Shown: piece by piece, positions 12,001-15,000 of the stretch
Layout of the letters: the number at the start of each line of letters is the position of its first letter
How positions within the stretch are numbered: position 1 is the stretch's first letter
Assembly: GCA_964596525.1 (NCBI GenBank)
Contig: CAZQUL010000001.1
Span: 876,890-940,889, forward strand
Direction: 5' to 3'
Source of the DNA: an uncultured Gammaproteobacteria bacterium
GTDB taxonomy: Bacteria > Patescibacteriota > Patescibacteriia > Magasanikbacterales > GWA2-37-8
Length of the DNA: 64,000 nucleotides
Made by a program: the position numbers

Positions 12001-15000
12001 GTAACGCGATGGCGTTCGTGGTGGAGCGTTTCATAGGGAAGACGCTAATGAATAAACCCTCCTTATAGATACCGTAGAATTCTCGTGCAGGCATGTCAAC
12101 GAGTTATGCACTATTTGGCTAAACAAAAAGACGGCCACCGAAGTGTCCGTCTTTTAGTACCTGTTCATGTGGCTGGGAGAGAGAGGTTATCGGTTGCTGC
12201 TAGTCGAGCGAGAGCCGTTCGAACCGTTCGAATCCTCCGAACGATTGTTTTCAGAGCGGGAATCCGAACGCGGAGAAGAGCCCTGGTTATTCATACCATT
12301 ACCTTCGCGATTGTTCTGCGATCCGGAGTTGGACATTTCGCGATCGGTATTCTGGTTGTTGTTATTGGTCATATGCGTAGCAGTTAAGGTATAACCAGTC
12401 CTATACAAGGAGGGAAAGCCTTCGACCTTTCCCAGAGAAGGGAGGCGTTGCAATAGGACTATAGGTACCTTACTCCCGGGGTGTGAGGTAAAAAATAGCA
12501 GGTGGGGATAAGTTATGGTGATGGCTTCTTTTTACGCTTCGTTGAGACAATTTCTTTGATTGCTTTTTTGGTGTAGTAGCTAGAAAAATTTTCGTGCAAT
12601 CGTTATTTAAAAACATGTATCACAATATAAAATCTCGCCAATTGATGGCGAGATTTTGGCAACGTTTTTTCTAATTTTTAATTTGGATCTGTTCCGGGTA
12701 CGAAGATAAAAATGGAGCCATCTTGCGCCGTAAGAGTGAGTGATGATTCAGCAACGCTTGCTTTCAAGCCTTGCGACAAGCTGGCAGCGAAGGCGGTTTC
12801 TGTTTGCATGCGCTCATCGACGCAGGCCATTTTGGTCATGGCGGTGTTGGTGGAGATGAAGATGTTGTTTTCTAACGAGTAGGTACCGTTGAGCGAGTTG
12901 CAGAGCTTGCCTTGGTATCCATTTTTGTTATCGAATGCTAGGTACTGTCCTTCGGGTGTGGGTTTGCTGTTGAATGAGGCAAGCGTCCAGGTGGTACCGT
13001 GGAGCGATGAAGCGCGTGGAGCACTCGAGGCGCAGCCGGCGCCCAGTAAAAGAAGGAAAGCAAGCGAAGTGAGGTATAAGGGAAGTTTCATACGAAGGTT
13101 GAATTATGGTTATGGTGGTACTGTACTCCCCGGTCGGAGGTTTGTATAGCTTTAACTTTTAAACGTTTATCATTAGGTAATTTCTAATTTTAAAACGATT
13201 TTGACTGGCGCTGGGGAGCGTGCTACCCTGGTAATCACTTTATCTCTCCTTATGCTTCCTCTTGCTATCTCCGGTGTCACCAAAACCTTTAAAACGCCCA
13301 AGGGCGATGAGTTTAAGGCAGTCAATAACGTTACGCTTACCATCGAACCGGGTAAAATTTATGGGCTCCTCGGCCCGAACGGCGCAGGAAAATCCACGCT
13401 TATCAATATGATCAGCGGTATTCTCACGCCGGACGCCGGTACGATCGAAATTTTCGGTGTCGATGTAGTAAAAGAACCAGAAAAAGCTAAACGGCTTCTT
13501 GGTGTAGTGCCGCAAGAAATCGTGGTGGAAATGGCGTTTACGGTTGAAGAAGTTTTGTATTATTTCAGCGGCATGTACGGCGTTTCGCGCGAAGACCGCA
13601 ATAAACGCATTCCGGAAATGCTCAAAGATTTGAGTCTCGAAGATAAAATGAAGGAACGCGCCCGCACGCTCTCGGGTGGTATGAAGCGCCGCCTTATGAT
13701 CGCCAAGGCGCTCATCCATGAACCAAAACTCCTCATTCTCGACGAGCCGACCGCCGGCGTCGACGTAGCGCTCCGCCAGAAAATCTGGGAACTCGTCCGC
13801 CGCCTCAACGCCGCCGGAACGACGATTCTGTTTACTACCCATTATCTTGAAGAAGCAGAGCAGCTCTGCGAGTATGTCACCCTCATTGATCATGGCGCAA
13901 TAGTTAAAAGTGGCAGAACCAAAGATATCCAGCAGGAATTTTCAAAACACACGATCCACTTCGAGCTGTTTGATCGGAGCGTCCAGCATTTGCATAACGT
14001 CACTACGGTCGGTTCGGAGTATGAATATCCGCTTACCAATCTCGAGCATGATATGAACGTGCTTGTTAAACACTACAACGGCAATCTCAAATCCATCCGT
14101 TCCGAAGCCGCGTCGCTCGAGCAGGTATTTTTGAAACTGACAGGAAAGTAAACGTGTCATTGCGAGCGCAGCGAAGCAATCCCTGTGTAATTCAGGGCCA
14201 CCTCTGTTAACAAAGGGGATTGCTTCGTCGCTTCGCTCCTCGCAATGACATGTGGTGACACTATTTGAAACTTTTTTCTATGTCCAATCCCTTGTGGGCG
14301 CTCTACGCCCGTGAAGTAAAACGGTTCCAAAAAATCTGGCTCGATACGGTCTTGAGCCCTATCGTATCGATCGGTTTGTATCTCGGCGTCTTCGGCATTG
14401 TCGCGGCCGGGAGGAATATCGGCGAATTGCCGTACGTGACCTTCGTATATACCGGGCTTCTCGCTATGATGATCGTGAACAGCAGTTTTTCCAATCCATC
14501 GTTCGCGCTCATCATCGCCAAAAACGTGGGTAATATCGTGGATCTTCAAATTGTGCCCATCAAAGCGTGGGGGATCGGGGTGGCGTATGCGCTCGCGGCA
14601 CTTACGCGCGGGCTTATCACGCTCGCAGTGACGCTTCTGTTTTCCGTGTGGTTCATTCCGGCGCTCGGACTCGATCATCCGGTGTATCTTCTCCTTGGTC
14701 TCGTTATCACCGGTATCGAATTCGGCATGCTCGGCGTGATCTTTGGTTTTCTCGCCAAGAATTTCGAGGCGCTCACCTTCATGACCACGTTTGTGATGCA
14801 GCCGATGATCTTTTTGGCCGGCGTGTTTTACCCGGTCGCGACACTGCCGCAGCCCTGGTCGACGATCAGTCTCTTCAATCCGATCCATCATAACGTGAAT
14901 ATCATCCGCTACGGCATTACCGGGTATCATGATCTTGCCCCACTCGTGTCGCTTGCTGTTATCATCGGGTTTGGTATCGTGCTTTTTGGGTTGATGCATT

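What the first reader, a model, noticed from the sequence alone, without database searches (positions are those of the whole stretch)
14156..14249. 94-bp palindromic repeat element between the ABC ATPase and permease, with a solo copy downstream of lexA
GTCATTGCGAG...GCAATCCC / GGGATTGC...CTCGCAATGAC forms a long imperfect hairpin precisely in the 113-nt gap between two genes that should be co-transcribed. Its right arm recurs at 8126-8166, just past the lexA stop. It looks like a REP or MITE-like genome-wide repeat that could act as an mRNA stabiliser, attenuator or recombination site.
Basis: seen in the sequence. Interest (0 to 1): 0.5.

Follow-up and report, generated by a model that had tools for sequence, protein, structure and literature searches.

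The report
REP-like hairpin repeat inserted in operon
The 94-base palindrome is a pair of small hairpin-forming repeats from a family found in many bacterial phyla and in phages, inserted between two transporter genes that abut in related bacteria; it is an ordinary kind of element, but what spreads this family is unknown.

Summary
Window 14156-14249 is a head-to-head pair of two about 30-nt units, GTCATTGCGAG-x-CGAAGCAATC and its inverse. It folds at -56 kcal/mol (z = -8). A third, single unit lies at 8131-8160. A covariance model finds exactly these three units in the 64 kb.

The unit belongs to a very widespread family. Scans of species genomes and of viral contigs both stopped at their 120-locus limit, with hits from at least 15 phylum-level groups. 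The usual form is the same head-to-head doublet, with a median length of 84 nt.

Each unit has invariant ends and an unpaired (C/T)GTC tag. Its variable apical helix covaries, and in 52% of units the apex is a GCGNAGC-type "mini-hairpin DNA" motif.

Five relatives have the ATPase stop and permease start only 1-4 nt apart, so this copy is an insertion. The single unit is also absent from a relative.

The closest described kind is the CGTC-tagged REP superfamily (Di Nocera 2013; CGTC-1 = Neisseria dRS3), which has no known transposase. I found no transposase here either.

Verdict: a new, uncatalogued member of a known kind. Its effect on the mRNA and its means of spread are inferred, not shown.

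The parts
14156..14181 (+). Left REP-like unit, short form. It reads GTCATTGCGAG-CGCAG-CGAAGCAATC on the + strand, is preceded by T (tag TGTC), and has apex GCGCAGC.
   Evidence: 35.2 bits
14182..14217 (.). Spacer of the doublet. Its outer CC/GG pairs extend the palindrome; the inner 32 nt form the loop and a small hairpin.
14218..14249 (-). Right REP-like unit, long form. On the - strand it reads GTCATTGCGAG-GAGCGAAGCGA-CGAAGCAATC, with tag TGTC and apex GCGAAGC.
   Evidence: 41.6 bits
14152..14253 (.). Full extended palindrome. The hairpin starts 1 nt after the ATPase stop codon TAA (14149-14151).
14250..14279 (+). 30 nt of extra sequence between the element and the permease ATG. Relatives lack it. 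It is A/U-rich, with no Shine-Dalgarno-like purine run.
8131..8160 (-). Single unit. On the - strand it reads GTCATTGCGAG-GAGGAACGA-CGAAGCAATC, with tag CGTC. It lies between the S24/LexA-like stop and the start of a conserved 55-aa ORF.
   Evidence: 37.1 bits
13201..14151 (+). ABC transporter ATPase gene. The start codon was not refined; the stop is TAA at 14149-14151.
14280..15029 (+). ABC-2 type permease gene. The ATG at 14280 was chosen by homology.
8168..8737 (-). S24 peptidase / LexA-like gene, upstream of the single unit on the minus strand.
7921..8088 (-). Conserved 55-aa basic ORF downstream of the single unit, on the same strand as the LexA-like gene.

Best explanation
The element is a head-to-head dimer of REP-type hairpin units, with a REPIN-like layout. 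It belongs to an uncatalogued sub-family of the (C/T)GTC-tagged REP superfamily.

Each unit, read on its purine-rich strand, has four parts: an unpaired YGTC tag; a 5-bp basal helix ATTGC/GCAAT; a conserved GAG/CGAA internal loop; and a freely varying apical hairpin. The apex is often a GCGNAGC 'mini-hairpin DNA' motif.

The dimer is non-autonomous, horizontally spreading DNA. In this lineage it was inserted into the 1-4-nt junction of a translationally coupled ABC ATPase-permease pair (shown). A single unit was inserted between a LexA-like gene and the small ORF that follows it (shown less precisely).

The rest is inferred.
- The units are probably copied through a single-stranded intermediate, by a trans-acting enzyme that recognises the tag and the hairpin foot. 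That enzyme is not encoded next to the copies.
- On the operon mRNA the 102-nt hairpin starts 1 nt after the ATPase stop codon. It most likely acts as in E. coli REPs: a barrier to 3' exonucleases or a processing site, and an obstacle to the terminating ribosome.
- The insertion also separates the permease from the Shine-Dalgarno sequence that lies in the end of the ATPase gene in relatives. The net result would be altered relative expression of the two genes, not termination of transcription.
For: Family and architecture
- 239 units were found in 120 genome loci. Of 98 adjacent pairs, 81 have the same head-to-head layout.
- 126 doublets were found in 240 loci, with median length 83.5 nt. 82% are heterodimers of a short and a long unit, as in the window.
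- The base before the element is C (56) or T (20) in 76 of 78 cases, mirrored by G/A after it. CGTC (248) and TGTC (207) far outnumber all other tags counted.

Structure
- All 5 pairs of the apical helix show compensatory changes. The covariation score is 0.30 against 0.087 for shuffles (0 of 500 as high), and one compensatory change occurs in the basal helix.
- Interiors fold at -3.4 kcal/mol against -1.1 +/- 0.08 when shuffled.
- 248 of 478 units carry GCGNAGC, GCGNNAGC or CCGNAGG. These motifs are described as extraordinarily stable, nuclease-resistant DNA hairpins that bind SSB (single-strand DNA-binding protein) poorly (PMC13037366).

Insertion
- Five relatives (permease 81-85% identical, same ATPase-permease-GST synteny) have a gap of 1-4 nt, against 128 nt in the window.
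- The single unit falls in an alignment gap against relative L251.
- No unit was found in 62 kb from these relatives.

Spread
- Hits come from at least 15 phylum-level groups, from 120 or more viral contigs and from plasmids.

Context
- Doublets lie between convergent (15) or co-directional (28) ORFs far more often than between divergent ones (5).

Kinship
- Tag, AT-starting stem, CCAG tail, head-to-head dimers and gene context match the CGTC REPs of Di Nocera et al. 2013 (PMC3733652).
- Classic CGTC-1 doublets with the same outer GTCATT...AATCCAG occur in the same contigs (L014, L106) as this family.

mRNA precedents
- REP hairpins stabilise upstream mRNA, and they reduce translation when they lie less than 16 nt from a stop codon (PMC12306157).
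Against: - No transposase or other recurrent gene lies next to the units in about 240 loci, and none of the Pfam families listed for the window's large ORFs (top 25 of 42) is a transposase. How the element spreads is therefore unknown.
- Copy number in the source genome is unknown; only 3 units in 64 kb were seen.
- The insertion is not clean. It adds 4 nt, the 94-nt element and 30 nt relative to the empty sites, and I saw no target duplication.
- Nearest-neighbour models do not predict single units to be stable hairpins (-1.6 to -3.3 kcal/mol, not better than shuffles). Their stability rests on published mini-hairpin and G.A-pair chemistry, not on a test done here.
- The orientation bias of single units against GC skew is seen only in viral loci (67:17), many of them related phages. 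It is absent in genome loci (25:24), so it does not support a replication-strand mechanism.
- No transcript data exist for the claimed mRNA effects.
- There is no U-tract after the hairpin.
Confidence: 0.7

Rival explanations
1. It is a conserved structured RNA, such as an intercistronic RNase III/E processing site, a stabiliser or a protein-binding element. On this view selection acts at the RNA level and the repeat spreads because it is useful.
For: The apical helix covaries while the basal module is invariant. Units lie almost always between genes of one operon or at 3' ends. In phage head operons they follow one gene after another, and in L140 the unit recurs together with a Shine-Dalgarno sequence as a cassette. 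The doublet is a very stable RNA hairpin.
Against: Units occur in both orientations relative to the flanking genes (51:40 in viral loci, 23:14 in genome loci), and the doublet carries both. Neighbouring genes are unrelated housekeeping or phage genes. No Rfam family matches. The commonest apices are GNA triloops typical of DNA mini-hairpins, not the GNRA or UNCG loops usual in RNA. Presence/absence differences between close relatives fit an insertion, not an old regulatory site.
Confidence: 0.15
2. It is a MITE: a deletion derivative of a DDE-type insertion sequence whose terminal inverted repeats are GTCATTGCGAG.../...CTCGCAATGAC.
For: It has inverted ends, a small size (64-149 bp), many copies, and insertion polymorphism.
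Against: No direct target duplication appears in 78 flank pairs; only a mirrored Y...R that extends the palindrome. Single units are common. Each 'end' is itself a covarying hairpin. No gene flanked by units is a recurrent transposase; one IS256-type hit appeared among 62 such genes.
Confidence: 0.05
3. It is a locally evolved intrinsic terminator or attenuator between the two ABC genes.
For: A strong hairpin lies in an intergenic gap. REP/BIME elements can attenuate transcription in E. coli (PMC12306157).
Against: No run of T follows the stem, and the terminator scan does not call it. The same sequence occurs in hundreds of unrelated loci. Relatives have no gap at all.
Confidence: 0.04
4. It is a site-specific recombination or integration target. 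Examples would be a dRS3-like target of an IS110/Piv-type integrase or an integron attC-like site, kept because a recombinase uses it.
For: The sibling family CGTC-1 (= dRS3) is the integration target of the Neisseria filamentous phage Nf1 (PMC3898611). The element is a folded imperfect palindrome with conserved ends.
Against: The ends do not match the attC core sites (RYYYAAC/GTTRRRY, from my own knowledge). There are no cassette arrays and no integrase nearby. Being a target would not by itself explain how copies multiply.
Confidence: 0.06

Closest known systems
CGTC-tagged REP superfamily (Di Nocera, De Gregorio and Rocco 2013, BMC Genomics 14:522). The nearest member is CGTC-1, which equals Neisseria dRS3 and Rickettsia RPE-6.
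   Same: Both have an unpaired CGTC or TGTC tag at one end, a stem that starts with AT, and a short unpaired tail (CCA/CCAG). Head-to-head dimers predominate and are often heterodimers. Both sit between co-directional or convergent ORFs close to the upstream stop, and neither has an adjacent transposase. The outer GTCATT...AATCCAG is identical to CGTC-1, which co-occurs with this family in L014 and L106.
   Different: The stem has only 5 Watson-Crick pairs (ATTGC/GCAAT). A conserved GAG/CGAA internal loop follows, then a variable apical hairpin of 3-29 nt. The described families have a perfect 8-9-bp stem with a 4-5-nt loop. The peptides this sequence would encode (VIASEAKQS, FARND, SLAMT) are absent from the paper's list of intragenic REPs. 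The host range seen here (at least 15 phylum-level groups plus phages) is far wider than the 5 phyla reported.
REPINs and their RAYT transposases (Bertels and Rainey 2011).
   Same: Two inverted REP units are separated by a short spacer and form one long hairpin. Singletons also occur. Doublets within one genome share their spacer (L040, L108, Bradyrhizobium).
   Different: REPINs carry a GTAG tag, are tied to a single-copy RAYT gene that REPs flank, and are mostly inherited vertically. Here no RAYT was found, and the same sequence occurs across phyla and in phages.
E. coli REP/BIME elements.
   Same: They have the same intercistronic and 3' positions. Dimers are made of unlike units (Y/Z). 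Known effects are mRNA stabilisation, attenuation, and ribosome stalling when the element is less than 16 nt from a stop codon (PMC12306157).
   Different: The sequences are unrelated. The effects have not been tested for this family.
Mini-hairpin DNA motifs (GCGNAGC, GCGNNAGC, CCGAAGG) at phage G4/St-1 complementary-strand origins and at plasmid ssiA (PMC13037366).
   Same: Exactly these heptamers and octamers form the apex of 52% of units, including both units of the window's doublet.
   Different: Those are single sites at origins that primases recognise. Here the motif sits on a dispersed repeat, and no link to priming has been shown.
MITEs such as Neisseria Correia elements.
   Same: They are small, have inverted ends, lie between genes and are co-transcribed.
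   Different: Correia elements have a TA target duplication, 100-155 bp bodies and TIRs of an IS-like type (from my own knowledge). None of these is seen here.

Membership tests
CGTC-tagged REP superfamily | Unpaired terminal tag CGTC (variants TGTC, CCTC). | tested here: met
   The window units carry TGTC, TGTC and CGTC. Family-wide counts are CGTC 248 and TGTC 207, with other tags rare.
CGTC-tagged REP superfamily | The stem begins with complementary A-T residues at positions 1 and 2. | tested here: met
   ATTGC...GCAAT; the A-U and U-A pairs are invariant in 32 of 32 aligned units.
CGTC-tagged REP superfamily | Stem of 8-9 bp with a loop of 4-5 nt. | tested here: not met
   There are 5 Watson-Crick pairs, then a GAG/CGAA internal loop, then an apical part of 3-29 nt. 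The unit therefore fits none of the four described families, CGTC-1 to CGTC-4.
CGTC-tagged REP superfamily | Short unpaired 3' tail (consensus CCA). | tested here: inconclusive
   The tail after GCAAT is CCAG in 144 units, but CTCN, CCCC and others elsewhere. In the window it is CCC and CTC. In doublets the tail pairs with its mirror copy.
CGTC-tagged REP superfamily | Head-to-head dimers predominate, and the element lies between co-directional or convergent ORFs. | tested here: met
   81 of 98 adjacent pairs are head-to-head. Context counts are 15 convergent, 28 co-directional and 5 divergent (crude ORF calls).
REPIN-RAYT system | Two inverted REPs with a spacer form a hairpin that is copied as one unit. 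| tested here: met
   Spacers are shared within a genome in L040, L108 and L039/L092.
REPIN-RAYT system | A cognate single-copy RAYT (Y1 HUH transposase) gene flanked by the REPs. | not testable with these tools
   No such gene appeared in about 240 loci of 8 kb or among 62 genes flanked by units. A single-copy gene would rarely be sampled this way, so whole genomes are needed. Di Nocera et al. found none for CGTC REPs.
REPIN-RAYT system | GTAG tag 5' of the hairpin. | tested here: not met
   The tag is YGTC.
MITE | Target-site duplication flanking terminal inverted repeats, and a related autonomous insertion sequence. | tested here: not met
   No direct repeat appears in 78 flank pairs. No insertion sequence with these ends was found.
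Intrinsic terminator | A G+C-rich hairpin followed directly by a U-tract. | tested here: not met
   The scan does not call it. The nearest T-run begins 23 nt after the core palindrome (19 nt after the extended stem).
Any Rfam RNA family | Score at or above the family's gathering threshold. | tested here: not met
   There are 0 hits in the window and in 14 loci that carry the repeat. Only chance-level microRNA-shaped hits appear below threshold.

The most novel reading that the evidence does not exclude
The ATTGC-type units, together with CGTC-1/dRS3, could be the substrates of a still unidentified trans-acting system. This system would recognise a single-stranded DNA hairpin by its YGTC tag, its AT-rich foot and a G.A-rich internal loop. 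It would copy the hairpin across at least 15 bacterial phyla and their phages without being encoded next to it. That would be a new mobilisation mechanism: a non-RAYT HUH enzyme, a phage-borne nuclease, or priming- or repair-coupled copying at mini-hairpin DNA sites that exclude SSB.
Probability: 0.2. Interest if true: 0.75.

Novelty: new member of a known kind. Interest (0 to 1): 0.4.

Why it matters
For this locus, the insertion breaks a translationally coupled ATPase-permease junction and places a -56 kcal/mol hairpin 1 nt after a stop codon. Any annotation or expression model of this operon should take that into account.

The repeat also fragments short-read assemblies. Logan contigs end inside both copies. 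It seeds spurious ORFs too, such as 14157-15065 on the minus strand.

More broadly, the family shows that CGTC-type REPs are far more widespread than reported, reaching candidate-phyla bacteria and tailed phages. It also gives a sharply defined recognition module (YGTC-ATTGC-GAG...CGAA-GCAAT-C) and a covariance model. With these, one could search for the missing mobilising enzyme by comparing which genomes carry the units with which genes they carry. That question has been open since 2013.

Tried and rejected
- **Rfam.** I ran it at gathering score and at permissive E-values on the window and on 14 other loci. Nothing real came up.
- **Literature searches by sequence strings.** These returned only primers. 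The specific family was not found in the held corpus; only the CGTC superfamily paper was.
- **Search for a partner gene.** All-against-all BLAST of ORFs near units found only ABC transporters, short-chain dehydrogenases, histidine kinases, EF-G and phage head genes. Pfam on 62 genes flanked by units on both sides gave no Y1 transposase. PHROGs on 102 genes of the densest phage contigs gave structural genes only.
- **Possible composite transposon in L092.** The doublets there lie inside 153-nt inverted repeats, but these flank a PQQ dehydrogenase gene, not a transposase.
- **Replication-strand bias.** It looked significant when pooled (124:58). It vanishes in genome loci (25:24) and comes from related phage contigs, so I rejected it as evidence.
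- **Bias relative to the coding strand.** It is weak.
- **DNA folding of single units.** They are not more stable than shuffles under nearest-neighbour parameters.
- **Lineage-specific copies.** A metagenome scan with the window's own spacer found none.
- **Filled and empty pairs in plasmids.** The search returned only the query plasmid itself.
- **Ruled out by sequence.** I considered a microvirus origin for the short viral contigs, but they are fragments of tailed phages. I also ruled out attC, CRISPR and tRNA-like CCA-minihelix readings; the tail is not CCA outside Alphaproteobacteria.
- **Organism name.** It could not be obtained. The proteins occur on an unnamed 1,343,778-bp NCBI contig, and the best named homologues are Candidatus Magasanikbacteria.
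Full report
**1. The observation**

The sequence at 14156-14249 is as described. It reads GTCATTGCGAGCGCAGCGAAGCAATCCC, then a 32-nt loop, then GGGATTGCTTCGTCGCTTCGCTCCTCGCAATGAC.

The repeat finder reports two arm pairs: 14172-14183/14216-14227 (12 nt, 100% complementary) and 14152-14166/14239-14253 (15 nt, 93%). The palindrome therefore reaches 4 nt beyond the stated ends.

As RNA, the + strand folds at -56.4 kcal/mol against -28.8 +/- 3.3 for shuffles (z = -8.25). The minus strand folds at -50.7 kcal/mol (z = -7.0).

The right arm recurs at 8131-8160, with an exact 13-mer and an exact 11-mer. That copy lies 7 nt past the stop of an S24/LexA-like gene on the minus strand.

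The flanking genes at 14 kb are an ABC ATPase and an ABC-2 permease. By N-terminal homology the permease starts at ATG 14280, so the gap is 128 nt, not 113.

A covariance model built from related units and run without filters finds exactly three units in the 64 kb, at 35-42 bits. The next-best hit scores 12 bits.

**2. A very widespread family**

I scanned one genome per species with GATTGCTTCG-N4-24-CTCGCAATGAC. The scan stopped at its 120-locus limit.

By my own calculation, about 6 chance hits would be expected in the whole 596-Gb collection (596e9 x 2 strands x 21 gap lengths / 4^21). Chance matches are therefore a small minority.

The record titles name many groups:
- Alpha- and Gammaproteobacteria (many Bradyrhizobium and sphingomonads) and Desulfobacterota
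- Helicobacter and Chloroflexota
- Bacteroidota (Pedobacter, Chryseobacterium, Hymenobacter) and Ignavibacteriota
- Zixibacteria and Cyanobacteria (Microcoleus, Nostoc)
- Melainabacteria and Patescibacteria
- Planctomycetota, Omnitrophota and Latescibacterota
- Armatimonadota, Gemmatimonadota and Spirochaetota
- Bacillota (Sporomusa)

Several of these are isolates, so the breadth does not rest on metagenome bins alone.

The same pattern also reached the limit of 120 loci in IMG/VR viral contigs. These are fragments of tailed phages and gene-transfer-agent-like clusters. Ten plasmids carry it, one of them at 32 places.

**3. Anatomy of the family**

Of 98 adjacent unit pairs in the genome loci, 81 have the window's head-to-head layout.

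Over all 240 loci there are 126 doublets. Their median length is 83.5 nt (range 64-149) and their median spacer is 23.5 nt. In 82% the two units differ in length, typically one with a 5-nt interior and one with an 11-nt interior, exactly as in the window.

The base before the element is C or T in 76 of 78 cases, mirrored by G/A after it. CGTC (248) and TGTC (207) dominate the tags counted. No direct target duplication is visible.

Read on the purine-rich strand, each unit is YGTC-ATTGC-GAG-[interior]-CGAA-GCAAT-C. The interior varies from 3 to 29 nt but is nearly always self-complementary. Its mean energy is -3.4 kcal/mol against -1.1 +/- 0.08 for shuffles.

On 32 distinct 34-nt units, all five apical pairs show double compensatory changes. 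The covariation score is 0.30 against 0.087 for shuffles (0 of 500 as high), and sliding the partners destroys the signal. The basal helix is nearly invariant, with one compensatory T-A to C-G change.

The commonest interiors turn the apex into GCGNAGC, with all four N present. Others give GCGNNAGC or CCGNAGG. In total 248 of 478 units carry one of these, including both units of the window's doublet.

These are the 'mini-hairpin DNA' motifs, reviewed as extraordinarily stable, nuclease-resistant DNA structures that bind SSB (single-strand DNA-binding protein) poorly (PMC13037366).

Ordinary nearest-neighbour folding does not credit such structures. It does not rate the single units of the window as stable. 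The G.A-pair reading is therefore an inference from published chemistry, not a result obtained here.

**4. It is an insertion here**

The permease is identical to a protein on an unnamed 1,343,778-bp NCBI contig. Its best named homologues are Candidatus Magasanikbacteria (Patescibacteria).

Five relatives have 81-85% identical permeases and the same ATPase-permease-GST order. In them the ATPase stop and the permease start are 1-4 nt apart (TAA-t-ATG), with an AGGAG inside the end of the ATPase gene.

The window has acgt + the 94-nt element + 30 extra nt at that junction.

The single unit lies between the LexA-like stop and the start of a conserved 55-aa ORF. The intergenic distance is 79 nt here against 31 nt in relative L251, and the unit falls in the alignment gap.

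The model finds no unit in 62 kb from these relatives.

Short-read contigs of the same organism end inside both copies. This shows that the k-mers are repeated in the metagenome, though not necessarily within this genome.

**5. Context elsewhere**

With crude ORF calls, doublets lie between convergent (15) or co-directional (28) genes much more often than between divergent ones (5). They are often within a few tens of nt of a stop codon.

In phage head operons the units follow one gene after another. In L140 the unit recurs together with an AGGGCTAAAGAAGG ribosome-binding stretch.

Units occur in both orientations relative to the genes.

Single units on one contig are usually co-oriented. The apparent bias against GC skew comes only from viral loci, many of them related, and is absent in genome loci. 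I do not count it as evidence for a replication-linked mechanism.

**6. No partner gene**

Clustering of ORFs near units gave only common housekeeping or phage structural families. So did Pfam on 62 genes flanked by units, a look at a doublet-containing 153-nt inverted repeat pair in L092, and Pfam on the window's large ORFs.

A single-copy enzyme would seldom be caught in 8-kb samples, so this negative result is weak.

**7. How it most likely works**

Shown:
- The element is a member of a mobile, horizontally distributed hairpin-repeat family.
- It was inserted at an operon junction.
- One strand of each unit is under selection to fold.

Inferred:
- Copying goes through a single-stranded intermediate, and an enzyme acting in trans recognises the tag and the hairpin foot.
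- On the mRNA the hairpin begins 1 nt after the ATPase stop codon. By the E. coli precedents it could protect the upstream message from 3' exonucleases, be cleaved, and hinder the terminating ribosome, since REPs less than 16 nt from a stop lower translation (PMC12306157).
- The permease has lost the upstream Shine-Dalgarno sequence and now sits behind an A/U-rich 30-nt leader.
- No U-tract or promoter consensus is present, so termination or a new promoter is unlikely.
- A self-folding insert also keeps stop and start close in space, which may be why it is tolerated. In the minimum-energy fold, which has a very low ensemble frequency, the flanks pair as well.

**8. Comparison with what is known**

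The best match is the CGTC-tagged REP superfamily (PMC3733652). Its features are:
- an unpaired CGTC/TGTC tag and an AT-starting stem
- a CCA tail
- head-to-head dimers that are often heterodimers
- positions after co-directional or convergent genes
- no dedicated transposase

Its CGTC-1 family equals Neisseria dRS3, ATTCCC-N8-GGGAAT. That repeat has about 700 copies and is the integration target of phage Nf1 (PMC3898611).

Classic CGTC-1 doublets with the same outer GTCATT...AATCCAG occur in the same contigs as the present family (L014, L106).

The present units fail the stem and loop definition of the four described families. Their peptide signatures are also absent from that paper's tables.

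I therefore file the element as a new, uncatalogued sub-family of a known kind. REPIN/RAYT is the nearest analogy for how it might work, but the GTAG tag and the RAYT are missing.

**9. Verdict**

The element itself is ordinary.

Three things make it moderately interesting: the breadth of the family, its DNA mini-hairpin apex, and the missing mobilising enzyme.

Noticed in passing
L161, L140, L150, L208, L186, L238 (IMG/VR viral contigs): Some tailed-phage head-morphogenesis operons (portal, major head, adaptor) carry one unit after almost every gene, up to 8 units in 6.6 kb. The units are co-oriented within a contig. In L140 the unit recurs with AGGGCTAAAGAAGG, a ribosome-binding stretch, as a cassette.
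   Followed up: partly
L014 4841-4925; L106 1689-1768: Classic CGTC-1/dRS3-type doublets (tGTCATTCCCGCGAAAGCGGGAATCCAG...) lie in the same contigs as the ATTGC-type doublets. They share the outer bases and the layout, which suggests one common recognition system.
   Followed up: partly
L092 1457-1609 and 4357-4509: In a Solimonas MAG, 153-nt inverted repeats that contain the doublet flank a PQQ-dependent dehydrogenase gene. The same extended repeat occurs in L039 of that MAG. The copied unit there is larger than the core doublet.
   Followed up: partly
L171 (four units, reported at 2695-2818); L010 1372-1956: Tandem arrays occur. L171 has four units with a 33-nt period (11 codons, possibly in frame in a phage ORF). 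A Chloroflexus contig has a cluster of seven units.
   Followed up: no
window 5195-8737, minus strand: An S24/LexA-like gene, a conserved 55-aa basic ORF (7921-8088) and a Y-family polymerase gene (IMS, 5195-6646) lie on the same strand. The relative L251 also has these three genes, with the polymerase two genes away from the LexA-like gene. This looks like an SOS-type cassette in a probable Patescibacteria genome.
   Followed up: partly
window 31372-34848 and 26371-28131: A 1158-aa NHL/beta-propeller + fn3 protein gene has internal DNA repeats spaced at about 180 and 366 nt. A neighbouring gene encodes an fn3 / purple-acid-phosphatase-N protein.
   Followed up: no
window 28145-28189: A near-perfect 20-nt inverted repeat with a 5-nt loop (95% complementary), followed by a T-run, lies just after the stop of the 26371-28131 gene. 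It is probably an ordinary intrinsic terminator.
   Followed up: no
window 14157-15065, minus strand: A 302-aa ORF starts inside the repeat and runs antisense through the permease gene. It is almost certainly spurious. Repeat-seeded ORFs of this kind would translate to motifs such as VIASEAKQS or LRFARND.
   Followed up: no
L001, L002, L003 (Logan contigs of SRR11567520 and SRR11567528): Short-read contigs of the same organism end inside both repeat copies. The repeat therefore fragments assemblies of this genome.
   Followed up: yes
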